DNA of 64,000 bases from Candidatus Nomurabacteria bacterium (GCA_040376695.1 JBEIQD010000003.1:1789-65788); one strand, 5' to 3'; counted from the first letter of the stretch, positions 5,553-64,000 are shown. Translations and numbers: made by a program. Notes: generated by a model from the letters alone, not told the origin.

Positions 5553-5668
5553 ACCGTGAAGTGTATCATGTCAAACGTCTCAATCATCGCCATTATTATG
5601 GATAAATCATAATTTCATAAAGAAAAATAGCCCCCGCAAGGGACTATATTTCTGTGTAAGTATTTATC

Positions 5669-7360: not shown

Positions 7361-7364
7361 AGAC

Positions 7365-8324: not shown

Positions 8325-8411
8325 GAGTATACATCTAAAAATCACCCAAAAATCATTATTTGTTAACATGGTTAGTCTTTGTTTCAATAGTGGATTACAA
8401 TTTACTATGTA

Positions 8412-9906: not shown

Positions 9907-9955
9907 GTATGAACTCTATCATGCAATGTAGTTGCCGCCTATGCTGCGGTGGTTT

Positions 9956-11908: not shown

Positions 11909-11923
11909 GAGTAAAACAGCAGC

Positions 11924-12214: not shown

Positions 12215-12218
12215 AGTA

Positions 12219-14444: not shown

Positions 14445-14739
14445 AGCTACCCTGAGTATACTTTATTTTCAACAGGTTTGTGACACTTCTCCCCAGATTC
14501 TAAGGCTTTTTTGGTGTGGATATCGCTTGTAGTATTACCCCCTTTTTGCTAGTATATGTAGGTTACTTGAGAGACCTATATATCTTGACGTATACAGTAA
14601 AATGTTACGTTTCGATACACGCACAGGGTACATATTCTAAGGTTGGGAGCATTAACCCCTCGCCAACCTCTAACTTATCGTAGTAGATACACAAAAACGC
14701 GTTCACGCGGCCTTCCATATCGCAGGATCTGCAATACTA

Positions 14740-15717: not shown

Positions 15718-15734
15718 TTTTTACATAAACCTAA

Positions 15735-15768
15735 AACAAAAGCACCTGATCAGGTGCTTTTGTTTTAT
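15735..15768. terminator. bidirectional intrinsic terminator (34-nt perfect palindrome) between the M23 peptidase gene and comM
   Basis: aaaacaaaagcacctgatcaggtgcttttgtttt, with A/T runs on both sides. Confidence 0.6.
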
Positions 15769-17321
15769 AATCTATTTTCGTACAGTTTTGGTCTGTATTG
15801 AAATGCCTCTAAGATATCAGCTTCTACTATATGTTCTGTTTGTTTTAAATCTGCAATGGTTCGAGCAAGTCGTAGCACTCGATGGTACGCTCGTGGTGAG
15901 AGAGCATACGAGGTTGCTAATTTTTTCATAAGGGTAAGTACTGGAGGAGTGAGGATAACAAATGTATCTATGTCTTTTGCTTTCATGTCTTTATTTTTAG
16001 TGATGTTCATAGCACCTCCTTTTTCAAAACGAGCTTTTGCAAACGTGCGTGCTTTGTGAACTTGTAAAACTATCGATTCGCTCTCTTCTCCAATGCGCGC
16101 ATGAGAAAGTGTATCGTAATCAACGTGTTGGACAGGAACCCAAATATCAATACGGTCCATAATTGGACCAGAAAGTTTTCGAGCGTATCTGTCTATATCA
16201 GACGGTTTACAGACGCAACGTTTTAATTTACTCCCCATATATCCGCACGGACACGGGTTCATTGAAGCGATGAGTGTACATGATGCTGGAAAAAGAAATG
16301 TTCCTTTTGCGCGAGATACGGAAATAAAACCTTCCTCAAGAGGTTCTCGTAAAGACTCTATTACGCGTTTATCAAACTCAGGAAATTCATCTAAGAAAAG
16401 CACGCCGTGATGAGCAAGTGTCACCTCCCCGGGGCGTGGGTCTGCTCCTCCACCAACAAGTGATACATATGACGATGTGTGATGAGGACTCCTAAAAGGA
16501 GGGTGCGTAATGACGGAAGTTTTTGCGTGAGCAACAGAATGTATACGAGTAACGTCAAGCGCCTCAGTGCGCGATAATGGTGGAAGAATTCCAGTGAACG
16601 CTCGAGCAAGCATGGTCTTTCCTGTTCCTGGTGGTCCGTAGAGAGCGATGTTGTGTCCCCCGGCAGCCGCAATAAGGAGTGCTCGTTTTGCAGTTTCTTG
16701 TCCGCGAATATCTTTGAAATCTAAATATGAATCAGGGCGAGAGTATGCAATATCAGTAAATGGTGCAGGAGTGAGCGTGATTATGTCCTCTACTCCTTCT
16801 ATGGTTCCGCCTAAATGAAGAACAAGATCACGAAGATTTTTACACCCATACACGGTAAGTCCCTGTACCAGAGAAGCTTCTTCGGTATTTGCTTCAGGAA
16901 CATAGAGGGCCTGCGCTCCTTCTTTCTTTGCGCACTCCGCGATAGAAAGAACTCCCATCATTGGAAGAATTTCTCCCGTCAATGAAAGTTCACCAACAAA
17001 CCATCCAACGTCTGTTGGGATGGATACTTGTTTTGATGCAATGAGATACGTCAACGCAACAGGAACATCAAAATGAGAACCTTCTTTTTTAATATTTGCA
17101 GGTGAAAGAGAAACAGTTACTTTATGGTTTTCTGTTTTTGGATTTCGTAACCTAGTGTTTTTTAGTGCTGCATTGATTCTATCTTTGCTCTCATCAATGG
17201 CTTTATCAGGAAGTCCTACAATGGAAAATGAATAGAGGCCGTTAGATACATCAACCTCAACCGTAATTGGTTCAGCGTGTAATCCAACGATGTGTGCACT
17301 TTTTAAACTGGCGACACTCAT
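15765..17321 (-). CDS. comM: Mg-chelatase-like AAA+ protein YifB/ComM
   Basis: 518 aa with Lon-like N-terminal domain, Walker A GPPGTGKTMLA and the C-terminal Mg-chelatase subunit ChlI domain. Confidence 0.85.
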   Translation of the reverse strand: MSVASLKSAHIVGLHAEPITVEVDVSNGLYSFSIVGLPDKAIDESKDRINAALKNTRLRNPKTENHKVTVSLSPANIKKEGSHFDVPVALTYLIASKQVSIPTDVGWFVGELSLTGEILPMMGVLSIAECAKKEGAQALYVPEANTEEASLVQGLTVYGCKNLRDLVLHLGGTIEGVEDIITLTPAPFTDIAYSRPDSYLDFKDIRGQETAKRALLIAAAGGHNIALYGPPGTGKTMLARAFTGILPPLSRTEALDVTRIHSVAHAKTSVITHPPFRSPHHTSSYVSLVGGGADPRPGEVTLAHHGVLFLDEFPEFDKRVIESLREPLEEGFISVSRAKGTFLFPASCTLIASMNPCPCGYMGSKLKRCVCKPSDIDRYARKLSGPIMDRIDIWVPVQHVDYDTLSHARIGEESESIVLQVHKARTFAKARFEKGGAMNITKNKDMKAKDIDTFVILTPPVLTLMKKLATSYALSPRAYHRVLRLARTIADLKQTEHIVEADILEAFQYRPKLYENRL

Positions 17322-35064: not shown

Positions 35065-35135
35065 TGCGGCGTAAGAGAATCGAACTCTTGTCTCCTGCTT
35101 GGAAGGCAGGCATTCTACCACTAAACCAACACCGC
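35065..35135 (-). tRNA. tRNA-Gly (anticodon UCC), no encoded CCA
   Basis: Cloverleaf by hand: acceptor GCGGTGT/ACGCCGC, anticodon loop CTTCCAA, T-arm GAGTTCGATTCTC. Confidence 0.8.
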
Positions 35136-35244
35136 TTGTAGAGACTATACTACTACATTTCTTTTAATTTTTCCAGAGTACATGCAAAATGTTTAAAATG
35201 TGATAGGATATATACACGTTTCTGCAAGGTTACAGAGGAAATAT

Positions 35245-35317
35245 CGGAGTGTGGTGTAACGGCTAACATTTTGGTTTTGGGTACCAAAGACTCAGGGTTC
35301 GAATCCCTGCACTCCGA
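35245..35317 (+). tRNA. tRNA-Pro (anticodon UGG), no encoded CCA
   Basis: Acceptor CGGAGTG/CACTCCG, anticodon stem TTGGT/ACCAA with loop TTTGGGT, T-arm CAGGGTTCGAATCCCTG. Confidence 0.8.
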
Positions 35318-35323
35318 CTATAA

Positions 35324-35357
35324 ACAACAAATCCGCCACGTGGCGGATTTGTTGTTT
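35324..35357. terminator. hairpin terminator after tRNA-Pro, convergent with the YraN-like gene
   Basis: aacaacaaatccgccacgtggcggatttgttgtt. Confidence 0.6.
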
Positions 35358-35368
35358 TAGTATAAAGC

Positions 35369-35770
35369 TTACTCTTTTAGTATATTTTCCATAAATACCA
35401 CTCTCCCCTCCCTTATTTCAGGATTAATATACACACAAGCTAAATCCATTTGCCAAGGTGTTCCACGTGTAACGTCTGTATGGCGTAGGTAGACTTCAAC
35501 ACTTATGACAAGTTTATTCCATTTATCTTGAGTTAGGTTATCTTCTGGTTGTACAGCTAGATTCTCCAGGTTGTTGAAATCTCTGACTTTTACACTTTTA
35601 ACTTCAATGAATCTTAGTTTGTTGTCCTTTTTCGCAATAATATCTATTTCACCAAACTTAGTACGATAGTTTGTGCCAACAACGGTAAAACCATGTTTCA
35701 TGAGAAACGTTTTTGTTATATTTTCACCTATTCTTCCAATTTCGTTATGTTCAGCCATGTTTGTAATCAT
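35369..35770 (-). CDS. YraN/UPF0102 family endonuclease-like protein
   Basis: GE.DIIA...LRFIEVK motif (GEIDIIAKKDNKLRFIEVKSVK). Confidence 0.65.
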   Translation of the reverse strand: MITNMAEHNEIGRIGENITKTFLMKHGFTVVGTNYRTKFGEIDIIAKKDNKLRFIEVKSVKVRDFNNLENLAVQPEDNLTQDKWNKLVISVEVYLRHTDVTRGTPWQMDLACVYINPEIREGRVVFMENILKE

Positions 35771-35937
35771 TTCATGAGAAACGATTATTTTGTTTCACGT
35801 GAAACGTTTGTCCTTCTTATTCCACTTTGCCTTTAATAAAAAGGGCAAAGACCTTTTAAAAAGATATATAAATCAATGCTTTTTTACAATTAAAGCCAGT
35901 ATTTGTACAATCTGCCCTCTACGTACTTTACTGTCTT

Positions 35938-35967
35938 TTATCCACTGTTCCCACAGGTTTATCCACA
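35938..35967 (+). promoter_or_regulatory. tandem DnaA-box-like cluster (TTATCCACT, TTCCCACAG, TTATCCACA) spaced about one helical turn apart
   Basis: Read directly: cttttatccactgttcccacaggtttatccacagtt. An AT-rich stretch, ttttaaaaagatatataaatcaatgcttttttacaattaaag, lies immediately upstream (35860-35900). Confidence 0.3.
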
Positions 35968-36088
35968 GTTTTGAACTTTAGAAGGGGTTTCATGTGGAAC
36001 AGTCAGCAAGAGAAACGTGGCTTGTTTCCCCTTGATAGAAGAGGGGATTATGCTAGAATGGTGTTACTAAATAAACAGATTTAGTGTT

Positions 36089-36159
36089 GCGGTGTTGGTT
36101 TAGTGGTAGAACACGACCTTGCCAAGGTTGAGACAGGAGTTCGATTCTCCTACGCCGCA
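36089..36159 (+). tRNA. tRNA-Gly (anticodon GCC), no encoded CCA
   Basis: Acceptor GCGGTGT/ACGCCGC, anticodon stem CGACC/GGTTG with loop TTGCCAA, T-arm GGAGTTCGATTCTCC. Confidence 0.8.
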
Positions 36160-36240
36160 CAGATTAGTCCTATTTTTCAAATAGAGACCACATGTAGAAA
36201 TATATTCTTCGTTACACGAGAAACGTTTAGTCACTTTTTG

Positions 36241-36312
36241 TGCTTCCACCAGGATTCGAACCTGGAACGACGGTTCCGAAGACCGTTGTGATATCCATTT
36301 CACCATGGAAGC
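36241..36312 (-). tRNA. tRNA-Arg (anticodon UCG), no encoded CCA
   Basis: Reverse complement gives acceptor GCTTCCA/TGGAAGC, D-arm GTGA..TCAC, anticodon stem ACGGT/ACCGT with loop CTTCGGA, T-arm CCAGGTTCGAATCCTGG. Confidence 0.75.
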
Positions 36313-36342
36313 TTGATTTATAAAGAAATTCTAACACATTCT

Positions 36343-37848
36343 ATGCTACAAATACAGCTGGATAAGGAAATACAGATACCAAAAGAAGTAAAAATGGTTT
36401 TAGCTGTTTTACAAGCCGCTTCACATGAAGCTTTTCTTGTCGGGGGTTGTGTTCGGGATCTTTTCATGGGAACTATTCCAAAAGACTACGATATTACGAC
36501 AAATGCTACCCCAGAGCAGATTATTGCTTTATTTCCAAAGACTTTTTACGAAAACACCTATGGGACAGTAGGTGTTGTTACGTGTGGGGAAGAGCTGGGT
36601 ATTCCTTGCATTGATGAAACGATAAAGGTTATCGAGGTAACCCCATATCGCCTAGAAGGGGAATATTCAGATAATCGCCATCCAGATGAGGTTAAGTGGA
36701 GTAAAAACATTGAAGATGATTTGAAACGCCGCGATTTCACATGTAACGCTATTGCTTATAACCCAATGACAGGCGAAGTGATTGATCCACATCATGGACA
36801 AGAAGATATCACCAATAGGATTATTCGAGCAGTAGGGGCGCCCGATGCTCGTTTCCAAGAGGATGCATTGCGGCTTATGCGTGCAATTCGCTTTGTTTCT
36901 CAGCTTGATTTTGATATTGATGGCGTTACACGTGAAAGCATTGAGAAAAATGCAGGCCTTCTTAAGAATGTTTCACGTGAAAGAGTGAGAGAGGAATTTG
37001 TAAAGCTTATTATGACCAACTTCCCAATGCGAGGAATCATCATGATGAAAGAAACAGGGCTTTTACAGGATGTTATCCCAGAACTTGAGCGTGGAATAGG
37101 GGTGGAACAGAATCAGGCACATAGTTACGACGTTTGGGAGCACAATTTGCGCACGTTACAGCATGCAGCAGATAAGAACTGGCCTTTACACGTACGTCTT
37201 TCTGCAATATTCCATGATATTTCAAAGCCAGAAACAAGGCGTTTCTCAAAAGAGAGTAAACAGTATACGTTTTACGGTCATGATGTGGTTGGTGGACGCG
37301 TTACACGTGAAATAATGGAAAGATTGAAGTTTCCAAAGGATATGATTGAGAAAGTCTCAATGTTTGTTCGTTGGCATATGTTTTTCTCAGACACTGAACA
37401 AATAACGCTTTCCGCTGTGCGAAGATTGATCACCAATGTTGGGAAGGATAATATCTGGGATCTTATTGATCTTAGAATCTGTGATCGTGTAGGAACAGGA
37501 CGTCCAAAGGAAGAGCCTTATAGATTAAGGATGTATCAGTCCCTTGTGGAACAGGCACTTAAAGATCCGATCTCACTTAAAATGCTAAAAACAGACGGGA
37601 AACGTATTATGGACGTTACACAAGAAACGCCGGGACCGAAAATAGGGTACGTTTTACACGCTTTGTTTGATGAAGTGCTAGAAGATCCTTTGAAAAACAC
37701 AGAGGAATATCTTGATGCAAAAGCAAAAGAACTGATGACACTCACAGTTACAGAGCTTAAAGCTTTAGGGGAAGCTGGGAAGGAGGGGATGGAACAGAAA
37801 AACGAGGAACAAGTGAAGGAAATCAGGAAACAATTCAAGGTAAAGTAG
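36343..37848 (+). CDS. cca: CCA-adding tRNA nucleotidyltransferase with HD domain
   Basis: Head domain FLVGGCVRDLFMG...DYDITT, RFVSQLDF and a C-terminal HD motif (HDISKP). The start is ambiguous: 36313, 36343 or 36394. Sits directly next to four tRNA genes that lack encoded CCA. Confidence 0.8.
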   Translation: MLQIQLDKEIQIPKEVKMVLAVLQAASHEAFLVGGCVRDLFMGTIPKDYDITTNATPEQIIALFPKTFYENTYGTVGVVTCGEELGIPCIDETIKVIEVTPYRLEGEYSDNRHPDEVKWSKNIEDDLKRRDFTCNAIAYNPMTGEVIDPHHGQEDITNRIIRAVGAPDARFQEDALRLMRAIRFVSQLDFDIDGVTRESIEKNAGLLKNVSRERVREEFVKLIMTNFPMRGIIMMKETGLLQDVIPELERGIGVEQNQAHSYDVWEHNLRTLQHAADKNWPLHVRLSAIFHDISKPETRRFSKESKQYTFYGHDVVGGRVTREIMERLKFPKDMIEKVSMFVRWHMFFSDTEQITLSAVRRLITNVGKDNIWDLIDLRICDRVGTGRPKEEPYRLRMYQSLVEQALKDPISLKMLKTDGKRIMDVTQETPGPKIGYVLHALFDEVLEDPLKNTEEYLDAKAKELMTLTVTELKALGEAGKEGMEQKNEEQVKEIRKQFKVK

Positions 37849-54898: not shown

Positions 54899-55318
54899 AT
54901 GTTATTCCCAAAGAAAGTAAAACACCGAAAATGGCAGACAGCCCGCCTCTCAGAAGAGAAGCTTAACCGTCCTGAATCACGTGGTATCACGGTAGCTTTC
55001 GGCTCGTTTGGTCTTAAAGCGGAAACTCCATCTCGTATTGCTGCGAATCAGATTGAAGCTGCTCGCCGTGCGATGTCTCGTCACGCAGGTAAGACTGCAA
55101 AGATTTGGATTCGTATTTTCCCAGATCGTCCAGTAACACAGAAGGCCGCTGAAGTTCCGATGGGTAAGGGTAAAGGAGATCCAGATCGATACGTATTTGA
55201 AGTACGACCAGGACGAATTCTCTTTGAGGTTGACGGTGTATCAGAAGAAATTGCTCGTGAAGCACTTCGCAAAGCTGGAACAAAACTTCCAGTTAAGACT
55301 CGAGTAGTTACTCGCTAA
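54899..55318 (+). CDS. rplP: 50S ribosomal protein L16
   Basis: 139 aa; FGSFGLKA...IEAARRAM...MGKGKG. Confidence 0.9.
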
Positions 55319-55324
55319 ACGCAT

Positions 55325-55591
55325 ATGACAAACAAAACTAACAATACAATAATCACCGTTCGCAAGAAGCTCACAGGAAAGGTTGTGTCTGACAAAATGG
55401 ACAAAACTGTTGTTGTGAACGTTCAACGATACGTTGCGCACAAGAAGTACGGAAAGTACTACAAGATCGACAAGCGCTACAAGGCTCATGATGAAAAGAA
55501 TGAGTACGTGGTAGGGGACACTGTCATCATCGAAGAGTGCCGTCCACTTTCAAAGGATAAGAACTTTACTGTTCTTGAAAAGAAGAACTAA
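55325..55591 (+). CDS. rpsQ: 30S ribosomal protein S17
   Basis: 88 aa; [14 protein letters not shown]......H.KYGKY.K...YKAHDE.NE...GD.V.I.ECRPLSK.K. Confidence 0.9.
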
Positions 55592-56439: not shown

Positions 56440-56997
56440 ATGGCTAAATCAGCATTTGTGGGTGTGCAGGAAATTGAAAAGGGACTCTTCGAGAAACTTT
56501 CAAAGGAATTTGGATACAAGAATATCATGGCGTCACCACACCTTGTAAAGGTGAATGTTTCTGTGGCGACAGGTTCTGCTATGAAGCGTGATAAGAAGCG
56601 AAATGATCTCGTGGTTGATCGTCTTACAAAGATTACAGGACAGCGTCCAACAGTACGTAAGGCAAAGATGTCAGTTGCGTCATTCAAAACTCGTGAAGGG
56701 GATCCAATTGGAGTTGCGGTAACGCTTCGTGGAGCTCGTATGTTCGGATTCTTGGATAAGGTCCTTAACGTGTCACTTCCTCGTACAAAGGACTTCCGTG
56801 GTCTTAATCGTACATCAGTGGATGATATCGGTAACATGACGTTTGGTATCAAGGAACATACTATTTTCCCTGAAATTAAGGACGAAGAACTTAAGGATGT
56901 TTTCGGAATGGCTATCACGCTTGTAACAACAGCGAAGACAAAGGAAGAGGCGACTCGTTTCTTTGAACTTATTGGTATTCCGTTCAAGAAGATCTAG
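56440..56997 (+). CDS. rplE: 50S ribosomal protein L5
   Basis: 185 aa; canonical L5 (KNIMASPHLVKVNVSV...RGARMFGFLDKVLNVSLPR). Confidence 0.9.
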   Translation: MAKSAFVGVQEIEKGLFEKLSKEFGYKNIMASPHLVKVNVSVATGSAMKRDKKRNDLVVDRLTKITGQRPTVRKAKMSVASFKTREGDPIGVAVTLRGARMFGFLDKVLNVSLPRTKDFRGLNRTSVDDIGNMTFGIKEHTIFPEIKDEELKDVFGMAITLVTTAKTKEEATRFFELIGIPFKKI

Positions 56998-57022
56998 TTT
57001 TTTAAACTAAATTTAACTAATA

Positions 57023-57055
57023 AAAAGCAGCGTCTACGATGCTGCTTTTTATATT
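57023..57055 (+). terminator. intrinsic terminator after rplE; the ribosomal cluster ends here
   Basis: aaaagcagcgtc-tac-gatgctgctttt followed by tatattttg. Confidence 0.65.
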
Positions 57056-57169
57056 TTGTATCCCCATTTTATCCTTTCTTCATAGGCACTATTCTCGTAT
57101 ACTGAACGTATGCTTTCGGGTCATTTTTCCATGTTTTATAAACTCTTTTCTTTACACAAGAGGGCGGTA

Positions 57170-60100
57170 ATGATCTCTCTCTGTGCGGTAGTACTTTTCT
57201 CCCCAACCCTCACGTTCGCAGCCAACCCAGCCTCTCCATTTTCTCCATCAGATAACGTAGTGGACCCAAACTGTTTACCAACAGATTCTAACTGTTATGT
57301 GTCGATGACAAGTATGACCTTTGTTAACGCAACTTCTACACGACTGTTTGCAACGAATGCATCTTCAACAAACTTTTTCTCTACACTCATAAATGCAGTA
57401 ACTGCACTCTTCACTAACCTCACTACAACAGGAACAACAACTCTTGCTACAACTGGCGGAAGGGTGGGAGTTGGAACAACTACACCGAACCATACACTTG
57501 ATGTCCAGGGAAATATTGGTCTTGCTTCTTCAGGCTACATTAACTTTGGTTCAGTAGACAGTACATCAGGATACGGATTCCGCGACAATGCTGGTGCAAT
57601 TGAATACAAGAACTCAAACGGAGGCTGGACATCATTCGCCTCAGCTGGTGCAGGAGGAGGACAGCTCCTTGCTGTGTACTCAACCTCAACTGTAGGAACA
57701 AACATTACCGTTAACTTCAATGGTTCTGCTAACTCTTCACCGTCATACTCAGGAGGTGTTCTTACGCTCCCCTCAAACGCATCTCACATCGTTGTTGAAA
57801 CATGGGGAGCGGGTGGTGGAGGAGGAGGGTCAAACGGCGGCGCAACAGGAGGGACTGGAGGGGCTAGTTGTTTCGGAACGAACGCAACAGCTTGTACGAG
57901 TCCTATTATAAGCGCAACAGGAGGGACTGGAGGAACCTCTCAAGGGGGAGGAAGTGTTGCTGGAACAGGAACAGGGGGTGATATTAATCTAACTGGTGGG
58001 ACGAGTGCAGGGCTCACAACTGTTGGAGGTGGTTCAATTAATTACTCTGCAGGAGGAGCAGGAGGATCTGCTCCTCTTGGAGGGGGTGGGGGAGGAAGTA
58101 CTTACACCTCATCTGGAGCAACAGGGGCAAGATACGGTGGAGGTGGAGGGGGAGGGGGAATCTATGGAAGTACCAGCTCTTGTACTGCAGGAGGGGGTGG
58201 TGCAGGAGGAGGATACGCAAGAAAGTTGGTCACTAATCCATCAGGAACATATTATTACACCATTGGTGCTGGTGGAGCTGGAACTGTTGCGGGAAGCGCG
58301 TGTGGAGTGGGAAGTCAATATGGCGGAGGCGATGGTGGCTCAGGAGGAATCACTATCTCCATCTATACCTCAGGAGTATCTAATGGTTCTATTGGAAGTG
58401 GTCTCACAGGGTACATTCCGTACTACGGTTCTACAGGAACTAACCTTTCTGCTACTTCTTCAATCTTTCTTTCAACAACAGGGAATGTCGGTATTGGAAC
58501 AAGTACACCACTTTCAAAACTCTCAGTACAAGGAGACTTTTTCTTAGAAGGGTCTAATAGATATTTAAATTTCGGAAACGCAACAGGAACTCCGGGATAC
58601 GGATTCCGTGACAACGCAGGGGTACTAGAATTCAAAAATGCTTCTGGCTCTTGGACAAGCTTTTCAACTTCCACAGCTTTAGGTTCTGCTGGCCCTTCTT
58701 TTTCTGTTAATAAAGGGGGAACCAGTCAAACAGTTCCAGGAGGGAACACTACTTTACTCACATGGTCAACAGAAGTGTTTGATACCAACAATAATTTTGC
58801 TTCAAACAGGTTTACTCCAACAGTTGCAGGTAAGTATATTTTTAATCTGAATGTGCGTTGTAATGGAACAGGATGTTACGCGCATATTTACCAAAACGGG
58901 ATTCAGGTGTCGCAAACAGGTACAGGAACTGGAGGTTCTGATACGGAAATAGTAAGTACTTCCATTCTTCTTGATATGAATGGCACCACTGATTACGTAG
59001 AAGCTTATGGATATAATACCTCAACCACTATTAGTGGAAATGCATCTCAAACCTTCTTCACTGGCGCACTCATTGCTCCAGTAAATGCCACGGCAGGTGG
59101 TTGGCAAAATGATAGTACTTCATCGTTCCTGGCTGACTCCACTGATTTTGTTGGAATTGGAACTTCTAGTCCTACAGCTAAACTATCAATCCAAGGAACA
59201 GCAGGCTTCAATCCATTCATGGTTGCTTCTTCAACAGGAGCTTCACTCTTCTCGATTCTTCAGAACGGTAATATTGGAATTGGAACAAGTACACCATCGT
59301 CTAAATTAGATATTTGGGGCAATCTTACAGTAGGTACTTCATCTACTCCATTAATTTTTGCAAATACAGCAACAGGAAATGTGGGGATTGGAACAGCGAA
59401 CCCTGAATATAAACTAACTGTTGTTGCTCCAGCATCAAATTGGGGTATTGCTATAAATCCAGACAATCCAAGTAGCGGAAAACAGTACGGTTTGTTGGCT
59501 CGTGGGACATTGTATTCCGGGTACTTTAACGGCCCAGGTTTTATAGATCAAAGTGCTTGGACATACGGCTCGGACCGTCGCCTGAAGGAAAATATTTCAT
59601 ATTTTGAAAATGGACTAGATACTATTATGCGTCTTAAGCCTGCTGCGTATGACTACATATCAGGAACGAAAAGTAACCTCGGATTCATTGCTCAGGATGT
59701 ACAGGAAGTTATCCCAGAAGCTGTAACAATAACTGATCCAACAACAGGAATGCTTGGACTTAAAACTGATTTTATTATTCCATATCTTGTTAATGCAGTT
59801 CAGAATATGAATTCCGTCTTTAACGCAAGTAATGCGTTAAATGCTTCTTCAACTATCTTCTCGTATTATCAGGGAACAACTACTCCTGCAATCACTGTGG
59901 GGGCTACAGGTAATGTCGCTATCGCAACAAGTTCATCCCCGTATACTTTAACTGTTGGTAACTCTCTTATCAGTGGTGTTATCGCTCGCTTCCAAAATGC
60001 TACAGGGTACTGTGATATCAATCCAACAACAACATCACTTACCTGTTCTTCAGACGAGCGACTTAAGAAAAATATCCTCTCACTTGACGCAACATCTACG

Positions 60101-60622
60101 TTCGACAAGTTCATCCAACTTAATCCCGTAACATATAACTGGATTGGAGAAACGTCTACTTCTTCAACCTCAACTCATGCAGGTTTCATAGCTCAACAAG
60201 TAGAAACTCTGTTCCCAGATCTTGTTGCAACGGACGAACAGGGAATGAAGTCTGTTTCATACACTGGGTTTATTCCGTATATTGTTGAATCTATAAAGAG
60301 TCTTGCTAGAGATGTGAAGGCTCTTACCTTAAAAGTTGCATCATTTGCGAATCTAGTAGAAACAGATAAAGTTAAAAGTAAAAGTATTTGTCTTGAAAAC
60401 AATGGAGCGGAGACATGTATTAGTAAAGAAAAACTAGATGCTATTCTCCTCCTTTTAGGAGAAACAGCTGCAAATCAAGATCAAAACATCACACCTCCAG
60501 ACACATCAACCACTACGCCAGATATTGCAACTTCAACCGATCCAGTAGCGTCTTCAACTCCAGAAATAACACCCACCGAAGAAATTGAAGGGGGCACTAA
60601 CTCAGAAACAGAAACAAACTAA
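57170..60622 (+). CDS. giant secreted phage-tail-fibre-like protein with repeat modules, a glycine-rich tract and two tandem peptidase-S74 (intramolecular chaperone, CIMCD) domains
   Basis: SD gaggg 5 nt before the ATG at 57170, then signal peptide MISLCAVVLFSPTLTFA. Repeated about 60-aa modules (GVGTTTPNHTLDVQGN...GYGFRDNAGAIEYKNSNGGWTSF, twice) and several GIGTSTP..KL.V.G fibre repeats. Gly-rich region at 57800-58350. Two S74-like domains: GSDRRLKENISYFENG...GFIAQDVQEVIPEAV (59570-59815) and SSDERLKKNILSLDA...GFIAQQVETLFPDLV (60050-60300). Thr/Pro/Glu-rich tail. Confidence 0.7.
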   Translation: MISLCAVVLFSPTLTFAANPASPFSPSDNVVDPNCLPTDSNCYVSMTSMTFVNATSTRLFATNASSTNFFSTLINAVTALFTNLTTTGTTTLATTGGRVGVGTTTPNHTLDVQGNIGLASSGYINFGSVDSTSGYGFRDNAGAIEYKNSNGGWTSFASAGAGGGQLLAVYSTSTVGTNITVNFNGSANSSPSYSGGVLTLPSNASHIVVETWGAGGGGGGSNGGATGGTGGASCFGTNATACTSPIISATGGTGGTSQGGGSVAGTGTGGDINLTGGTSAGLTTVGGGSINYSAGGAGGSAPLGGGGGGSTYTSSGATGARYGGGGGGGGIYGSTSSCTAGGGGAGGGYARKLVTNPSGTYYYTIGAGGAGTVAGSACGVGSQYGGGDGGSGGITISIYTSGVSNGSIGSGLTGYIPYYGSTGTNLSATSSIFLSTTGNVGIGTSTPLSKLSVQGDFFLEGSNRYLNFGNATGTPGYGFRDNAGVLEFKNASGSWTSFSTSTALGSAGPSFSVNKGGTSQTVPGGNTTLLTWSTEVFDTNNNFASNRFTPTVAGKYIFNLNVRCNGTGCYAHIYQNGIQVSQTGTGTGGSDTEIVSTSILLDMNGTTDYVEAYGYNTSTTISGNASQTFFTGALIAPVNATAGGWQNDSTSSFLADSTDFVGIGTSSPTAKLSIQGTAGFNPFMVASSTGASLFSILQNGNIGIGTSTPSSKLDIWGNLTVGTSSTPLIFANTATGNVGIGTANPEYKLTVVAPASNWGIAINPDNPSSGKQYGLLARGTLYSGYFNGPGFIDQSAWTYGSDRRLKENISYFENGLDTIMRLKPAAYDYISGTKSNLGFIAQDVQEVIPEAVTITDPTTGMLGLKTDFIIPYLVNAVQNMNSVFNASNALNASSTIFSYYQGTTTPAITVGATGNVAIATSSSPYTLTVGNSLISGVIARFQNATGYCDINPTTTSLTCSSDERLKKNILSLDATSTFDKFIQLNPVTYNWIGETSTSSTSTHAGFIAQQVETLFPDLVATDEQGMKSVSYTGFIPYIVESIKSLARDVKALTLKVASFANLVETDKVKSKSICLENNGAETCISKEKLDAILLLLGETAANQDQNITPPDTSTTTPDIATSTDPVASSTPEITPTEEIEGGTNSETETN

Positions 60623-60625
60623 TTC

Positions 60626-61684
60626 GTGAAATCTTTATCTTTTCGAAAAATAATAGGAACTATCGGACTTGTTGCATGTTCCACAATTTCTTTTGCCGTG
60701 GCATCTGAAACTTCAGGAGCAATACTTTCAGGTTCGCAGTACACAAAGGTGTGTCATGACAGTGCATGTTCAACGTATGGAACGTTAAATTTTTTACCAA
60801 CAGTTACTGCAACAACTACTGCTATCAGAATCACTGATACTGCTATTACAGGATATGTGTGGGGAAATGAAACTGGATGGATTAATTTTGCGCCAACTGG
60901 GGCAGGGGTCACGGTGGATGCAGCAACGGGACTTGTGTACGGAACAGCTTGGTCTCAAGCAGGAGGATGGATTAATTTTCGCCCATCTAATTCTGGAACT
61001 ATCGTAAGCGGCATACCTATCGGTGTTTCCATTACACCTGCGGGAGAGTTCTATGGGTATGCATGGCTAGGCGGAGTATACGGTGGATGGATTAAATTTG
61101 ATTGTTCTTCGGCGGATACATGTGTGAAAACGGATTATAGAACTACTTCGTACAGATCTGCTACCTACGTGTACCTTGCCCCTTCCTATTTTACTCCTAC
61201 TGAAAATACTCCAGTAAAGGAAGAGGTTCCTACGCCTGTAACGATAGGCACATCTTCTCCTAGTACTGAAGTTGTTCCTGTTGAGGAAACCTCAACCTCT
61301 GTTCCTCTACCTGTAGTTATACCTTCAACTCCAGAAATTATTGATACTCCAACAGAACCAAGTTCAGTTGAACCTGTTTTCATGGGCGGTGGCAGCATAT
61401 TTTCCTCATGGGGTGGTGTAAGGGAAATTATGAGACCATCGTTCCTTGGATTTTTTGAAACACCAACACCGCTTTCTTTAGGTCTTAGTGTGAGCGCAGA
61501 ATCTTTGGGGTCTACAATTAGATCTGCGTTCCAGAATTTTAAATTAGAATTTAAGGTAATCTCGCTAGACAATATTTTCAATAAGGATAAAGACAGTAGT
61601 GAAATATATAATTTCAAAACTCACAATATTTGGCCAACAGTTAAATCGGCACTTGTGAGCGTCATTAATCTTTTTAAGAACTAG
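60626..61684 (+). CDS. secreted protein with three GWINF/GWIKF repeats and a Thr/Pro/Glu-rich linker
   Basis: Signal peptide MKSLSFRKIIGTIGLVACSTISFAVA. Repeats ...NETGWINFAPTGAG..., ...QAGGWINFRPSNSG..., ...VYGGWIKFDCSS... Starts 4 nt after the fibre gene stop. Confidence 0.5.
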   Translation: MKSLSFRKIIGTIGLVACSTISFAVASETSGAILSGSQYTKVCHDSACSTYGTLNFLPTVTATTTAIRITDTAITGYVWGNETGWINFAPTGAGVTVDAATGLVYGTAWSQAGGWINFRPSNSGTIVSGIPIGVSITPAGEFYGYAWLGGVYGGWIKFDCSSADTCVKTDYRTTSYRSATYVYLAPSYFTPTENTPVKEEVPTPVTIGTSSPSTEVVPVEETSTSVPLPVVIPSTPEIIDTPTEPSSVEPVFMGGGSIFSSWGGVREIMRPSFLGFFETPTPLSLGLSVSAESLGSTIRSAFQNFKLEFKVISLDNIFNKDKDSSEIYNFKTHNIWPTVKSALVSVINLFKN

Positions 61685-61759
61685 TTATATTGTAAGAGAG
61701 GAGTTTGAGGTGTAGTATGTTTGCAGTACGTTCAATAGTAAGAAAAGAAAGGAAACCGC

Positions 61760-62014
61760 ATGTTTTCGAAAAACCAGCTTGCAAAAGCTCTCGAGTCTGC
61801 ACTTAAAGACGGTTTCGTTAAGCCGGCAGTAGATGTGCAGGAAGCCTTTCAGAGAATTCAAGAAAAATTAGATGCCACACTCTCCCAAAGTAAGGTGTCT
61901 GAACTTCAGCGGACACGACAAACCCCATCTGTAGGACTTTCATTTTCGGCCTCCGTCAGGTACCCTTCCTTCGAAAGTTCATATAAATCTGTTTCAGGTT
62001 GGCCGCGCCGGTGA
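61760..62014 (+). CDS. small hypothetical ORF with its own terminator
   Basis: 84-aa ORF with an AAAGGAAA RBS. The C-terminal half has odd composition; treat the call as low confidence. Confidence 0.25.
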   Translation: MFSKNQLAKALESALKDGFVKPAVDVQEAFQRIQEKLDATLSQSKVSELQRTRQTPSVGLSFSASVRYPSFESSYKSVSGWPRR

Positions 62015-62035
62015 AGCTTTCAATAAAACCGAGCA

Positions 62036-62066
62036 AAAAGACCCTTTAAAAAGGTCTTTTCTTTTT
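62036..62066 (+). terminator. intrinsic terminator
   Basis: aaaagacc-ctttaaaaa-ggtctttt followed by ctttttg. Confidence 0.55.
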
Positions 62067-62115
62067 GTAGGCGTAGCCCTTGACATAAATGGTAAAGTAA
62101 TGTAGGATTGGGCAC

Positions 62116-63468
62116 ATGAAAACAGGAATTATAACAATTGCAAAAAAGAGCCTTTTGGCACTAGGTTTTTTCGGAATCCTAGCAAACACAGCGCATGCAG
62201 CGTATTTTGATACTACGCCCGCGTACCGTTGTGATATTCAAATTACTCGTACATTACAGGTTGGTTCTGAAGGAGTTGAAGTTACAGTACTTCAAAATTT
62301 CCTTAATCGAACAGGGGATTTAACAGCAACACCTAATGGATATTTTGGCTCAGCTACTCGTGCTGCAGTTCGAAGTTTCCAGTCAGATAATGGTTTGTAT
62401 ACAACCGGAACAGTAGGAGAAGCTACACGTAACGCTATTAATGAGCGTATGTGCGATACAAATCTCCAGACATCATCATATTCAGATTCATACTATGGAT
62501 ACTCGTCTGGTGTGACATATGTTGATCCATACGATGCGTTCGTACAGGTGATTACTCCACATGTAACAACTCCAATTGTATACACAAATCCACAGCAAAC
62601 TATTCAGACTTCTAACTATTCTGCATACAACTCAAATGTTTCTTATCCTGTAAATAATTCTACTCCTATCATTCCAGCAGCAAGTACAGCCATCGCAAGT
62701 ACTAATGTTATCTACTCACCATACATTGGATATACATACGGTATTACTCCAGTTACTGGATCTCTTACGATTTCAACACCAGTTGCAAACAGTGTATATA
62801 ACGAAGGAGATACTGTGCAGCTTGCTTGGGTTACAAGTAACATCAATGCTTCTGCATACTCAATCGTTCTTGAAAATTCTTCAACAGGACAATCAAAGGT
62901 TGTTACCACAACAAGTGGAACTAACGCCTCATTTGTTCTTACAAAGGAAGTGCTTGATGCGGTATGTGCAGGCGCGTGTGATAACAATAACCAGGGAACA
63001 TTCCGTATTGTGATTACAACTCCAATTCGTGATATCTCAGGAACAGTTTCAACATTCCGTGCTGCTGTTGCTCCGGTTACTATCAAGCGTCCATATGCAA
63101 ACTTTGGAACAGTAAGTATTACAACAAGTAAGAATCCTGTTACTTCAGGAGATATCTTCAAGCTCTACGTTAATATTCCAACAGGAGCATCATGGGATAC
63201 AGGTCTTTACGGACAGTACTCATTTAAGATTCGTGCAATTTGTCCAGCTGGTGTTACAGCAAGTATCGCTGGAACTCAGTGTGGAAACGACTTTGTAATT
63301 CCATTTGCGCCAACGTATTTCCAGTCAGAAATACCAGCATCTGTTACAAATACATCATGGTACCAGCAGAATGTAACATTTGTTCTTACAGTAACTAACC
63401 TTGCTGGACAGACAATTGGAACTTCTCAGGTAAACGTAACTGCAAGTCAGGCACCATTCCACTGGTAA
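62116..63468 (+). CDS. secreted protein with an N-terminal peptidoglycan-binding domain (PG_binding_1-like) and a Ser/Thr/Tyr-rich beta-rich C-terminal region
   Basis: Signal peptide MKTGIITIAKKSLLALGFFGILANTAHA. GSEGVEVTVLQNFLNRTGDL...GYFGSATRAAVRSFQSDNGLYTTGTVGEATRNAI matches the PG-binding helical-bundle signature. Confidence 0.6.
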   Translation: MKTGIITIAKKSLLALGFFGILANTAHAAYFDTTPAYRCDIQITRTLQVGSEGVEVTVLQNFLNRTGDLTATPNGYFGSATRAAVRSFQSDNGLYTTGTVGEATRNAINERMCDTNLQTSSYSDSYYGYSSGVTYVDPYDAFVQVITPHVTTPIVYTNPQQTIQTSNYSAYNSNVSYPVNNSTPIIPAASTAIASTNVIYSPYIGYTYGITPVTGSLTISTPVANSVYNEGDTVQLAWVTSNINASAYSIVLENSSTGQSKVVTTTSGTNASFVLTKEVLDAVCAGACDNNNQGTFRIVITTPIRDISGTVSTFRAAVAPVTIKRPYANFGTVSITTSKNPVTSGDIFKLYVNIPTGASWDTGLYGQYSFKIRAICPAGVTASIAGTQCGNDFVIPFAPTYFQSEIPASVTNTSWYQQNVTFVLTVTNLAGQTIGTSQVNVTASQAPFHW

Positions 63469-63482
63469 TTGATACAGCAAAA

Positions 63483-63512
63483 TAAAAGCCGCACATATGT
63501 GCGGCTTTTATT
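63483..63512. terminator. bidirectional terminator
   Basis: aaaagccgcacatatgtgcggctttt flanked by A/T runs. Confidence 0.65.
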
Positions 63513-63522
63513 TTGTTTATGA

Positions 63523-63984
63523 TTAGGCAATTGCGTTCTGAACTAGAAACATAACAACAGTAACCACGGCTACAAGGAATGTTCCCCACAATGTATCAAC
63601 AATAGTTAACGACCACGGATAGTCTCGCAATGTCGCAAGATTAGTGAAATCATAAAATGCGTACATGAAAAATCCCAGGAGACCTCCGTAGAGAGCTGCT
63701 TCTTGAACACTAGTAACGCGCGATAAAACAAATGTCCAAATACCGAGCACTGCCACAATGTATACAAGGGGTATGGCCGGAAGGTAAGGGGCGAGTGCTC
63801 CATCTTTAAGGGTTATGTGGCTTGCAAGACTATTCAAATAAAAATTCTTTGCAAGATGAGCAAGCCAAATATAATCTAAAATTATAAATGTAATAAAACC
63901 AGATACGGATGCAAGTATGATTGATAGCATATAAAAAGTGTAGCATGACCTTGTTTTAAGCTCTATTTTGTGGTAGTATTGCAA
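63523..63984 (-). CDS. small polytopic membrane protein (hypothetical)
   Basis: 153-aa ORF with four predicted hydrophobic helices; family uncertain. Confidence 0.45.
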   Translation of the reverse strand: MQYYHKIELKTRSCYTFYMLSIILASVSGFITFIILDYIWLAHLAKNFYLNSLASHITLKDGALAPYLPAIPLVYIVAVLGIWTFVLSRVTSVQEAALYGGLLGFFMYAFYDFTNLATLRDYPWSLTIVDTLWGTFLVAVVTVVMFLVQNAIA

Positions 63985-64000
63985 AACCGTTCGTAATCCG

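What the first reader, a model, noticed from the sequence alone, without database searches (positions are those of the whole stretch)
57060..63520. Tail-fibre-like surface-protein cluster inserted where the spc ribosomal operon should continue
The otherwise syntenic str-S10-spc cluster stops at rplE with a clean terminator. In place of rpsN/rpsH/rplF/rplR/rpsE/rplO/secY there is a three-gene secreted-protein module. It comprises an 1150-aa fibre-like protein, a GWINF-repeat protein and a PG-binding-domain protein, each with a signal peptide, and the first two genes are only 4 nt apart. Read alone, the module looks like a host- or cell-attachment or cell-envelope fibre system built from phage tail-fibre parts, with no phage structural or packaging genes nearby. 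Its placement inside the most conserved operon of the genome is unusual and suggests either insertion of an accessory island or a lineage-specific operon split.
Basis: partly seen in the sequence, partly recalled or inferred. Interest (0 to 1): 0.8.

Follow-up and report, generated by a model that had tools for sequence, protein, structure and literature searches.

The report
Phage-like surface fibre cassette splitting ribosomal operon
In an ultra-small groundwater bacterium, the gap between two ribosomal-protein genes holds a secreted, phage-tail-fibre-like protein and a previously undescribed partner protein; the ribosomal operon is only interrupted, not truncated, and it resumes about 90 bases past the end of the window.

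Summary
The genes are real and the domain calls hold. The fibre ORF (57110-60622) has two Peptidase_S74 domains and PHROG tail-fibre hits. The 450-aa protein has PG_binding_1. The "GWINF" protein matches no library.

The headline claim is wrong. The spc operon does not stop at rplE. A contig identical to the window's last 500 nt shows rpsN starting about 93 nt beyond position 64000, followed by rpsH-rplF-rplR-rpsE-rplO-secY-adk-map.

The organism is a Patescibacteria (Paceibacterota/Nomurabacteria-like) MAG lineage. In about 33 related species the rplE-rpsN gap already holds the PG-binding gene, about half of them with DUF2177 beside it, plus other variable genes. That part is a lineage-wide split.

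Only fibre+GWINF is an accessory cassette. It occurs at this slot in this species group and in one sister species, and it diverges far faster than its flanks.

New here: GWINF is a large unannotated extracellular domain family, predicted to be an 8-stranded beta-barrel. In 12 of 44 independent metagenome loci it sits directly downstream of an S74 fibre gene.

Best reading: a Sec-exported, self-cleaving trimeric surface fibre with a wall- or membrane-associated partner, probably for attachment. Function is inferred, not shown. Moderate interest.

The parts
56440..56997 (+). rplE (uL5), the last r-protein gene before the interruption
   Evidence: Translation. Pfam Ribosomal_L5/L5_C on the identical protein.
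57020..57052 (+). Intrinsic-terminator-like hairpin (15-bp stem, 3-nt loop, T-run) after rplE
   Evidence: A comparable hairpin lies within 130 nt of rplE in 50 of 76 related loci, so this boundary is a lineage trait and not a product of the insertion.
57110..60622 (+). Fibre gene. The ORF is 1170 aa; the probable start is ATG 57170 (1150 aa, preceded by GAGGG). The N-terminus MISLCAVVLFSPTLTFA|ANP looks like a signal peptide.
   Evidence: P0001, 100% identical, 1150 aa. Pfam S74 x2. 19 PHROG families, 17 in the tail category.
57662..58369 (+). Glycine-rich globular domain of the fibre (ORF aa ~185-420; motif IVVETWGAGGGGG)
   Evidence: The only long region modelled with pLDDT ~90. Homologs P0007, P0012, P0029 and P0030 carry Pfam Gly_rich_2, but the only direct alignment to a scored Gly_rich_2 stretch is 45 aa at 60% identity. 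The window protein itself did not reach E<=0.1 for Gly_rich_2.
58754..59074 (+). C1q/TNF-like 'head' domain (ORF aa 549-655). It is a variable cassette: absent in P0004 and P0005, and replaced by other sequence in P0006.
   Evidence: Pfam C1q 23.3 bits against a 23.7 cut-off. A 284-aa stretch spanning the head is 49% identical to P0012 over the part of P0012 that holds its Pfam-significant C1q domain. 68 IMG/VR viral contigs match, nearly all over this domain, at 29-47% identity. Mosaicism.
59555..59887 (+). Peptidase_S74 / intramolecular-chaperone domain, copy 1 (motif SDRRLKENI at ORF aa 821)
60035..60352 (+). Peptidase_S74 / intramolecular-chaperone domain, copy 2 (motif SDERLKKNI at ORF aa 981). 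It is followed by a long helix and a Thr/Pro/Ser/Glu-rich tail running to the stop codon.
   Evidence: (T4-type long tail fibre tip 6f45). Foldseek matches MyRF ICA 7dc3 at E=1.4e-4, with weaker hits to 3gw6 and 3gud.
60626..61684 (+). GWINF gene (352 aa). It has a signal peptide, a ~145-aa Cys-containing beta-barrel domain (aa 31-175, nt 60716-61150) with three G-x-AW...GW(I)(N/K)F repeats, a Pro/Thr-rich linker and an amphipathic C-terminal helix.
   Evidence: (family D5).
61760..62014 (+). 84-aa ORF of unknown status, found only in this species. It is followed by a bidirectional hairpin at 62035-62061.
   Evidence: No family hit.
62080..62108 (+). Promoter-like site (TTGACA-17-TAGGAT) upstream of the PG-binding gene
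   Evidence: This is a consensus match only.
62116..63468 (+). PGB: secreted 450-aa protein with PG_binding_1 (aa 53-108) and a conserved C-terminal region of unknown fold. It is the lineage-conserved resident of the rplE-rpsN gap.
   Evidence: Full-length orthologs (40-67% identity) lie downstream of rplE in about 33 species loci.
63523..63930 (-). DUF2177 membrane protein, a second frequent resident of the gap. rpsN starts about 160 nt beyond its 5' end, outside the window.

Best explanation
There are two layers.

(1) Genome architecture, which is shown. In this Paceibacterota/Nomurabacteria-like clade of Patescibacteria, the rplE|rpsN junction of the spc operon is a terminator-marked boundary that has become a variable gene slot. 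A secreted PG_binding_1 protein, often with a DUF2177 membrane protein, has been resident there since the common ancestor of about 33 sampled species. The operon continues downstream with rpsN...secY-adk-map. In the window's species, a two-gene cassette (fibre + GWINF) sits between rplE and the PG-binding gene.

(2) What the cassette is, which is inferred. The fibre is a Sec-exported protein built from phage receptor-binding-protein parts. These are repeated VGIGT stalk motifs, a glycine-rich domain, a C1q/TNF-like head and two C-terminal Peptidase_S74 intramolecular-chaperone domains with intact Ser...Lys motifs. By analogy with endosialidase and T5 pb1 fibres and with MyRF, the S74 domains would drive trimerisation outside the cytoplasm without an ATP-dependent chaperone, then cleave themselves off. 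The GWINF protein is translationally coupled to the fibre gene. It displays an 8-stranded beta-barrel on a Pro/Thr-rich stalk, and in relatives it is anchored by a C-terminal TM segment or a PG_binding_1 domain. It is proposed to be the cell-surface partner (dock or adaptor) of the fibre. The pair would form a hypervariable attachment fibre on this presumably episymbiotic cell.
For: Architecture:
- L087 overlaps the window's last 500 nt at 100% identity and carries rpsN to map.
- rplE-[variable]-PGB-(DUF2177)-[variable]-rpsN... is seen in about 33 species loci, and the gap ranges from 52 nt to more than 10 kb across 80 loci.
- A hairpin follows rplE in 50 of 76 loci.

Cassette:
- Fibre+GWINF appears only in the window species group (L001, L002, L007, L095), as a fibre start at the contig end of L026, and in one sister species (L092-L094). 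There a different 1788-aa S74 protein overlaps a 51%-identical GWINF gene by 4 nt, upstream of PGB and rpsN.
- The cassette diverges much faster than its flanks. In L095, PGB is 97.6% and DUF2177 99.3% identical, against fibre 79% and GWINF 83%. In L007, rplE is 100% and PGB 90.5%, against GWINF 74% and fibre 62-81% with the head deleted.

Fibre parts:
- Pfam S74 E=4.9e-34 with two copies. The SDxRLKxNI motif occurs twice in all six close homologs.
- Foldseek hits MyRF ICA, with weaker hits to endoNF IMC and GA-1 IMC.
- 19 PHROG families match, 17 in the tail category. Phage tblastn matches tail fibres at 27-38% identity over aa ~600-1060. The head domain matches 68 viral contigs.

S74-GWINF link:
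- Of 44 independently retrieved GWINF genes with enough upstream sequence, 12 have an S74 ORF ending within 100 nt. Most are within -28 to +6 nt; one is 25 nt away. 15 have one within 1.5 kb.
- One locus (L142) encodes both domains in a single 2549-aa protein.
- L217, retrieved from the fibre side, has GWINF 3 nt downstream.
- Outside the window's own species, the roughly 1.2 Mb of rplE-centred loci hold only one S74 ORF, in L086.

GWINF is extracellular and anchored:
- It has a signal peptide and 4 conserved Cys.
- 46 of 107 homologs have a C-terminal TM-like segment, 14 have PG_binding_1, and others have CarboxypepD_reg or dockerin.
- The domain is modelled with pLDDT above 90.
- It has no viral relatives.
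Against: - No expression, localisation, cleavage or binding data exist. Adhesion and fibre-GWINF contact are inferred from domain content and gene neighbourhood only.
- The window's own GWINF protein lacks a TM or PG-binding anchor. It ends in an amphipathic helix.
- 29 of the 44 testable GWINF genes have no S74 ORF within 1.5 kb upstream. Four of the five fibre homologs checked from the fibre side lack GWINF. The partnership is therefore facultative.
- The fusion protein is a single case. None of 228 other family members has both domains.
- The fibre model is poor overall (mean pLDDT 59), as expected for a monomer model of a trimer.
- With two tandem S74 domains, it is unclear which cleavage yields the mature product.
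- The fibre's signal peptide lacks a basic n-region if translation starts at 57170.
Confidence: 0.6

Rival explanations
1. This is a recent horizontally acquired genomic island (fibre + GWINF + PG-binding gene) that inserted into, and broke, an otherwise intact S10-spc operon.
For: The region 57110-61684 has the largest tetranucleotide distance from the window average (z=3.0). Fibre+GWINF is absent from most sister species. The domains are shared with phage fibres.
Against: - The operon break, the terminator and the PG-binding gene predate the cassette and are lineage-wide.
- There is no integrase, no tRNA and no flanking direct repeats.
- GC3 of 0.28-0.29 is typical of the window's non-ribosomal genes. 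The tetranucleotide deviation is confounded by Gly/Ser/Thr-rich repeats.
- In the sister species L092/L093, GWINF is as diverged (51%) as PGB (55.5%). This fits vertical descent or exchange within the clade rather than foreign import.
- GWINF has no viral relatives.
Confidence: 0.1
2. This is a decayed prophage or tailocin remnant, and the fibre is a leftover virion receptor-binding protein with no cellular role.
For: PHROG tail-fibre hits and the S74 domain. Phage tail fibres are the closest annotated relatives.
Against: - No other phage gene lies within the 64-kb window near the locus. The neighbours are r-proteins, EF-Tu and EF-G.
- The ORFs are intact in several strains and species, with both catalytic motifs conserved.
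- The N-terminal signal peptide is conserved in P0001-P0004. That is atypical for virion fibres.
- The partner GWINF family is absent from IMG/VR and is tied to cell-envelope anchors.
- Most named full-length homologs are chromosomal CPR proteins.
Confidence: 0.03
3. The fibre is a secreted or surface protein with a non-adhesive role. It could be a structural element of the cell envelope (a nap or S-layer-associated fibre), or a polysaccharide-binding or degrading enzyme. GWINF would then be an unrelated wall protein that merely shares the operon.
For: - The PG-binding neighbour and the envelope-related content of the slot. By a crude heuristic, 53 of 132 slot ORFs have SP/TM-like N-termini, against 66 of 888 outside the slot.
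- C1q-headed trimeric fibres also form structural naps, such as Bacillus BclA (own knowledge).
- S74 domains occur on depolymerase tailspikes.
Against: - No catalytic domain was detected in Pfam, NCBIfam or PDB searches.
- Strain-level hypervariability and head-domain swapping are more typical of recognition proteins than of structural ones.
- The S74-GWINF adjacency is strongly non-random.
Confidence: 0.2
4. The fibre is a defence or decoy device. A displayed or shed phage-RBP-like fibre would block receptors or compete with CPR phages.
For: It shares domains with phage receptor-binding proteins and it diverges rapidly.
Against: No PADLOC family matches. No defence genes are adjacent. There is no precedent in the searched literature.
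Confidence: 0.04

Closest known systems
Phage tail fibres and tailspikes with a C-terminal intramolecular chaperone (Peptidase_S74): K1F endosialidase endoNF (PDB 3GW6), GA-1 neck appendage (3GUD), T5 pb1, T4-type gp37 tips (6F45)
   Same: - The S74 domain is well above the Pfam threshold and carries the SDxRxK Ser...Lys motif.
- The fold matches.
- It has repeated G-x-VGIGT stalk motifs, a modular mosaic body, and a head domain shared with viral contigs.
   Different: - It is encoded in a bacterial chromosome between ribosomal-protein genes, with no virion genes nearby.
- It has a Sec-type signal peptide.
- It has two tandem S74 copies, found only in this close subfamily (6 of 39 S74-bearing homologs).
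- About 90 residues lie beyond the last S74 domain, plus a low-complexity tail.
- Identity to phage fibres is only 27-38% and is limited to aa ~600-1060.
MYRF (myelin regulatory factor) ICA domain, PDB 7DC3
   Same: This is the best structural match to the model (Foldseek E=1.4e-4). It is a precedent for a cellular, non-viral protein using the S74/ICA domain for trimerisation-dependent self-cleavage (own knowledge of the family).
   Different: It is a eukaryotic membrane-bound transcription factor. The rest of the architecture is unrelated.
Phage fibre + downstream partner gene pairs (T4 gp37-gp38, lambda stf-tfa, Mu S-U)
   Same: The gene order is the same: a large fibre gene followed by a small partner with a gap of a few nucleotides or an overlap. 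This arrangement recurs in many loci.
   Different: - GWINF has no detectable sequence similarity to any PHROG, Pfam or NCBIfam family.
- It is absent from viral contigs.
- It carries a signal peptide and cell-envelope anchors.
- S74 fibres normally need no separate chaperone.
C1q-headed bacterial surface fibres (Bacillus exosporium BclA) and trimeric autotransporter adhesins
   Same: These are trimeric fibrous surface proteins with a globular distal head used for surface interactions. This is a functional analogy from own knowledge.
   Different: The fibre has no collagen repeats, although homolog P0052 has them. It has no autotransporter barrel. The trimerisation device (S74) is different.
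Soluble 8-stranded beta-barrel surface and ligand-binding domains (hemophilin 7RE4, NHBA 5O1R, HpuA 5EE2, YceI, avidins)
   Different: Sequence identity is 4-14%. The similarity is at fold level only and gives no evidence of homology or of a shared ligand.

Membership tests
Peptidase_S74 / intramolecular chaperone (ICA) domain proteins | Profile match above the curated threshold | tested here: met
   PF13884 scores 116.8 bits against a cut-off of 22, with two stretches. A custom HMM finds two domains, at P0001 aa 796-906 and 956-1061, which is ORF aa 816-926 and 976-1081.
Peptidase_S74 / intramolecular chaperone (ICA) domain proteins | Conserved Ser...Lys catalytic motif (S-D-x-R-x-K) at the start of the domain. 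The assignment of residues is from own knowledge of endoNF Ser911/Lys916. | tested here: met
   SDRRLKENI and SDERLKKNI are present, and conserved twice in all six close homologs.
Peptidase_S74 / intramolecular chaperone (ICA) domain proteins | ICA fold | tested here: met
   Foldseek matches 7dc3 at E=1.4e-4 (prob 1.0). 3gw6 and 3gud have prob 0.9-0.99 but E-values of only 0.055-0.35. The second copy is modelled at pLDDT ~85-90. The first copy is modelled poorly.
Peptidase_S74 / intramolecular chaperone (ICA) domain proteins | Trimerisation-dependent autoproteolysis | not testable with these tools
   This needs expression of wild type and S-to-A mutants.
Phage virion tail fibre (part of a phage, prophage or tailocin) | Located in a virion structural module, with baseplate, tail, capsid or packaging genes nearby | tested here: not met
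   The neighbours are tuf, S10/spc r-protein genes, PGB and DUF2177. No phage contig matches full length.
C1q/TNF-like domain | Profile match above threshold, or jelly-roll fold | tested here: inconclusive
   PF00386 scores 23.3 bits against a cut-off of 23.7. A 284-aa stretch spanning the head is 49% identical to P0012 over the region that contains its C1q domain, which passes at 28.2 bits. The model of this region has pLDDT 50-70 and only weak Foldseek hits to C1QL1 and a TNF-like lectin.
Gly_rich_2 (PF21722) | Profile match | tested here: inconclusive
   There is no hit at E<=0.1 for the window protein. Homologs P0007, P0012, P0029 and P0030 do carry the domain, but the only direct alignment to a scored Gly_rich_2 stretch is 45 aa at 60% identity.
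PG_binding_1 proteins | Profile match above threshold | tested here: met
   PF01471 scores 55.9 bits against a cut-off of 23, at aa 53-108. PDB relatives are PG-binding modules of lysins. No catalytic domain was found.
Site-specifically integrated genomic island | Integrase or recombinase, tRNA or att direct repeats at the borders | tested here: not met
   No flanking repeats beyond chance-size matches. The nearest tRNAs are at 35-36 kb. No recombinase ORF lies in 56-64 kb.
Site-specifically integrated genomic island | Foreign base composition | tested here: inconclusive
   The tetranucleotide distance is the highest in the window (z=3.0). However, GC3 of 0.28-0.29 lies within the range of the other non-ribosomal genes (0.26-0.35), and the sequence is dominated by Gly/Ser/Thr repeats.
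Truncated spc operon (operon ends at rplE) | rpsN...secY absent downstream | tested here: not met
   rpsN, rpsH, rplF, rplR, rpsE, rplO, secY, adk and map follow DUF2177 on L087 and L088, which share the exact DUF2177 protein. L087 overlaps the window at 100% identity.

The most novel reading that the evidence does not exclude
Ultra-small Patescibacteria have domesticated phage receptor-binding fibres as their own host-recognition organelle. This would be a Sec-exported, S74-self-assembling trimeric fibre held on the cell by a dedicated, lineage-specific beta-barrel adaptor, the GWINF family. That family has about 2500 cluster representatives and no annotation. The two genes would co-evolve as a hypervariable cassette that sets partner or host specificity, exchanged by recombination at a terminator-marked gap inside the ribosomal super-operon.
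Probability: 0.3. Interest if true: 0.7.

Novelty: new variant of a known kind. Interest (0 to 1): 0.42.

Why it matters
- How CPR/Patescibacteria recognise and attach to their hosts is largely unknown outside the type IV pili of Saccharibacteria. The papers retrieved discuss pili and generic adhesin domains only. A recurrent cassette of S74 fibre plus GWINF partner gives a concrete, testable candidate for a second attachment system in Paceibacteria.
- It defines a sizeable unannotated extracellular domain family.
- It gives another example of the S74/ICA self-assembly module used outside a virion.
- The operon result is a caution for window-based scans. The "missing" half of the spc operon lies 93 nt beyond the window, and the break is an old lineage trait.

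Tried and rejected
- C-terminal cassette swap in strain L001. This was suggested by fragmentary tblastn hits. A global alignment shows a ~78-aa repeat-unit insertion plus local divergence, with an identical C-terminus.
- Integration scars. Repeat search over 56.9-62.2 kb found only internal coding repeats.
- Rfam. Only four tRNAs at 35-36 kb were found. There is no r-protein leader or other RNA in 56-64 kb.
- Defence role. No PADLOC hit.
- NCBIfam names. None for fibre or GWINF.
- PDB sequence search for GWINF. Nothing significant.
- The AFDB50 fold library was unavailable.
- A viral-contig scan with the fibre alignment failed for lack of conserved columns. The single-protein scan worked.
- More S74+GWINF fusion proteins. 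There are none among 228 family members, so the L142 fusion stands alone.
- Literature. No paper links Peptidase_S74 or endosialidase-like fibres with Patescibacteria or Parcubacteria.
- The SP/TM enrichment in slot ORFs uses a crude heuristic, and its control set is made largely of r-proteins and spurious ORFs. I give it little weight.

Full report
**What is in the sequence**

- rplE lies at 56440-56997.
- A strong hairpin with a T-run lies at 57020-57052.
- A 1170-aa ORF spans 57110-60622. Public gene calls start it at ATG 57170, giving 1150 aa, and a GAGGG Shine-Dalgarno precedes that ATG.
- A 352-aa ORF at 60626-61684 starts 3 nt after the fibre stop.
- An 84-aa ORF lies at 61760-62014 and is followed by a bidirectional hairpin.
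- A 450-aa ORF lies at 62116-63468, behind a TTGACA-17-TAGGAT promoter-like site.
- A DUF2177 membrane-protein gene lies on the minus strand at 63523-63930.

The domain calls are as follows.
- Pfam gives Peptidase_S74 at E=4.9e-34 with two stretches. C1q is borderline at 23.3 bits against a 23.7 cut-off. PG_binding_1 scores E=4.8e-15.
- PHROGs gives 19 families for the large protein, 17 of them in the tail category.
- The GWINF protein matches nothing in Pfam, PHROGs, NCBIfam, PADLOC or PDB sequences.
- Independent assemblies reproduce the same junctions, so this is not a chimera.

**The operon does not stop**

The exact DUF2177 protein occurs on contig L087. The reverse complement of L087 is 100% identical to window 63501-64000. 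It continues with rpsN, starting at window-equivalent position ~64093, about 93 nt beyond the window. Then come rpsH, rplF, rplR, rpsE, rplO, secY, a 232-aa ORF, adk and map.

The statement that the module stands "in place of" rpsN...secY is therefore a window-edge artefact. The spc operon is interrupted by about 7.1 kb.

**The interruption is old; only part of it is accessory**

The organism is a Patescibacteria (CPR) lineage. The rplE protein is 100% identical to MAG nzgw467. The next relatives are labelled Nomurabacteria, Paceibacterota or Parcubacteria.

I fetched 80 species-representative loci around rplE and annotated the rplE-rpsN gap.
- In the roughly 33 closest species (rplE 79-89% identical), the gap holds an ortholog of the 450-aa PG-binding protein at 40-67% identity. 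About half of them also have DUF2177 on the opposite strand. Other variable ORFs lie before and after.
- In more distant relatives the gap ranges from 52 nt to several kb, with unrelated content.
- A terminator-like hairpin follows rplE in 50 of 76 loci, including loci where rpsN follows closely.

So the rplE|rpsN junction is a lineage-wide transcriptional boundary and a variable slot. The PG-binding gene is its conserved resident, not part of an inserted island.

Fibre+GWINF has a much narrower distribution.
- It is found between rplE and PGB only in the window's species group (L001, L002, L007, L095).
- A fibre N-terminus appears at the contig end of L026.
- In one sister species (L092-L094), a different 1788-aa S74 protein with EPTP-like repeats overlaps a 51%-identical GWINF gene by 4 nt, upstream of PGB and rpsN. 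That species is as distant as the others (rplF 84%, secY 79%, PGB 55.5%). GWINF divergence therefore matches that of the vertically inherited neighbour.

There are no integrase genes, no tRNAs and no flanking repeats. Tetranucleotide distance is the highest in the window (z=3.0). However, GC3 is normal and the sequence is repeat- and glycine-rich, so composition is uninformative. Exchange by homologous recombination through the conserved flanks is the simplest mechanism. This is an inference.

**The fibre**

Residue numbers below follow the 1170-aa ORF. The architecture runs in this order.
- A hydrophobic signal-like N-terminus (aa 21-37), conserved in P0001-P0004.
- Two copies of a G-x-VGIGT...GYGFRDNAG module, plus several further VGIGT motifs (families D1, D3, D7).
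- A glycine-rich domain at ~185-420. It is the only long region modelled at pLDDT ~90. Several homologs carry Pfam Gly_rich_2, though the direct alignment to a scored Gly_rich_2 stretch is only 45 aa.
- A C1q/TNF-like head at 549-655.
- Two S74 domains, at 816-926 and 976-1081, with motifs SDRRLKENI and SDERLKKNI.
- A long helix and a Thr/Pro/Ser/Glu-rich tail.

Structure and similarity searches agree with this.
- Foldseek's best hit is the MyRF ICA domain (7dc3, E=1.4e-4). Hits to the endoNF (3gw6) and GA-1 (3gud) chaperone domains are weaker, at E=0.055-0.35.
- Similarity to deposited phages is limited to aa ~600-1060, at 27-38% identity. The matches include T2/T4-type gp37, endosialidase-like proteins and hyaluronidase tails.
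- The head domain has 29-47% identical relatives on 68 IMG/VR contigs.
- The 84 detectable homologs are large proteins (687-2021 aa). Those with organism names come mostly from Kaiserbacteria, Paceibacterota, Moranbacteria and Parcubacteria.

The tandem S74 arrangement is specific to the six closest homologs, out of 39 homologs that carry S74.

Among close relatives the protein is mosaic.
- One strain has a ~78-aa repeat-unit insertion.
- Two relatives lack the head entirely.
- One relative has other sequence in its place.

Fibre and GWINF together diverge far faster than their flanks.

| Locus | Flanking genes (identity to window) | Fibre | GWINF |
|---|---|---|---|
| L095 | PGB 97.6%, DUF2177 99.3% | 79% | 83% |
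| L007 | rplE 100%, PGB 90.5% | 62-81%, head deleted | 74% |

**GWINF**

- The family is large. A full HMMER scan of 1.84 billion cluster representatives gave 2515 proteins at E<=1e-3, 642 at E<=1e-10 and 99 at E<=1e-30.
- The conserved part is a ~145-aa domain directly after a signal peptide. It has four conserved cysteines and three G-x-AW...GW(I)(N/K)F repeats.
- AlphaFold models it with pLDDT above 90 as an 8-stranded meander beta-barrel.
- C-terminal regions vary. 46 of 107 homologs end in a TM-like segment. 14 carry PG_binding_1. Others carry CarboxypepD_reg or dockerin.
- The window's subgroup ends in an amphipathic helix instead.
- No relative was found in IMG/VR viral contigs.

**The link between the two genes**

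I retrieved 51 metagenome loci through a GWINF peptide pattern alone and annotated them with home-made S74 and GWINF HMMs.
- Of 44 GWINF genes with at least 600 nt of upstream sequence, 12 have an S74 ORF ending within 100 nt upstream on the same strand. Most lie between a 28-nt overlap and a 6-nt gap; one is 25 nt away.
- 15 have an S74 ORF within 1.5 kb.
- Four others follow large proteins of more than 800 aa without a detectable S74 domain.
- One locus (L099) holds two S74 genes and two GWINF genes.
- One locus (L142) encodes a single 2549-aa protein with GWINF at aa 36-176 and S74 at 2255-2350.

Starting from the fibre side, one of five further loci (L217) has GWINF 3 nt downstream.

For comparison, outside the window's own species the ~1.2 Mb of rplE-centred loci hold only one S74 ORF, in L086. 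The adjacency is clearly non-random but not obligatory. No further fusions exist among 228 family members.

**Most likely mechanism (inferred)**

- The fibre is exported by Sec.
- The C-terminal S74 domains nucleate trimerisation of the stalk outside the cytoplasm and then cut at Ser821 and/or Ser981, as in endosialidase-type fibres and MyRF. This rests on established knowledge of the family, together with the intact motifs.
- The mature trimer carries the Gly-rich and C1q-like domains as candidate binding modules.
- GWINF is a stalked extracellular barrel that is wall- or membrane-anchored in many relatives. It is the best candidate for the protein that holds or adapts the fibre at the cell surface.
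- Given the episymbiotic lifestyle known or inferred for cultivated Patescibacteria, attachment to a host or partner is the most plausible role.
- The rapid, joint divergence and head swapping fit a recognition function.

None of this is shown experimentally. A structural or enzymatic role, or no contact between the two proteins, remains possible.

**Comparison and verdict**

The protein is a bona fide S74/ICA-domain protein; profile, motif and fold were tested and met. It is not a virion tail fibre by context; that feature was tested and not met.

The closest analogies are:
- phage fibres with intramolecular chaperones;
- phage fibre-plus-partner gene pairs;
- MyRF, as a cellular user of the same self-cleaving module.

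I found no literature on S74 fibres in CPR or on the GWINF domain. I rate the finding as a new variant of a known kind, of moderate interest.

What remains is a recurrent, hypervariable fibre-plus-partner cassette and an unannotated domain family.

Noticed in passing
window 55318-55325 (between rplP 54899-55318 and rpsQ 55325-55591): There is no rpmC (uL29) gene. The rplP-rpsQ gap is 8-73 nt in all ~45 near relatives, against ~120-425 nt in 24 more distant loci. An L29 ORF was detected in 22 distant loci. No L29-like sequence occurs elsewhere in the 64-kb window. Lineage-specific uL29 loss in CPR is already reported (PMC9297842).
   Followed up: yes
window 57020-57052 and the equivalent position in L008-L086: A terminator-like hairpin directly after rplE is present in 50 of 76 related loci, including genomes where rpsN follows within a few hundred nt. 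rplE|rpsN therefore appears to be a transcription boundary or attenuator across this group.
   Followed up: partly
window 61760-62061: An 84-aa ORF with a plausible RBS is followed by a bidirectional hairpin (62035-62061). It is present only in the window species (L001, L002) and absent from L007, where GWINF and PGB are 82 nt apart. It has no family hit, and whether it is a real gene is unknown.
   Followed up: partly
window 3072-5552(-), 5669-7393(-), 12219-14444(-): Three large ORFs (826, 574 and 741 aa) have no Pfam hit. The first two have signal-peptide-like N-termini. None contains an S74 or GWINF domain.
   Followed up: partly
L216 (JAXOUH010020384.1) 115-13954: Another CPR S74 + Gly_rich_2 fibre (1796 aa) lies next to ribosomal genes (rpmB, then rpsL-rpsG-fusA-tuf). 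It is preceded by cohesin-domain and Big_13 proteins. This is a second case of a fibre gene abutting an r-protein operon.
   Followed up: no
L215 (Ga0679433_0000133) 6001-11199: A 1732-aa S74 homolog sits inside what looks like a conjugative element, with relaxase, a TraG/TrwB coupling protein, ArdC and NikA-like genes.
   Followed up: no
L099 (JACCDZ010712792.1) 8007-16531: A cluster with the order GWINF - S74 protein (1174 aa) - S74 protein (972 aa) - GWINF. This suggests tandem duplication or stacking of cassettes.
   Followed up: no
L142 (Ga0209542_10000262) 691-8340: A single 2549-aa ORF carries a GWINF domain at aa 36-176 and an S74 domain at aa 2255-2350. It is the only fusion found.
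   Followed up: partly
P0273, P0278, P0282-P0284, P0291, P0295-P0312: Some proteins contain 4-6 matched stretches of the GWINF repeat. The GW(I)(N/K)F unit therefore also occurs in longer arrays than the single three-repeat barrel.
   Followed up: no
window 35065-36312: A cluster of four tRNA genes on alternating strands, upstream of a CCA-adding-enzyme-like gene at 36313-37848.
   Followed up: no
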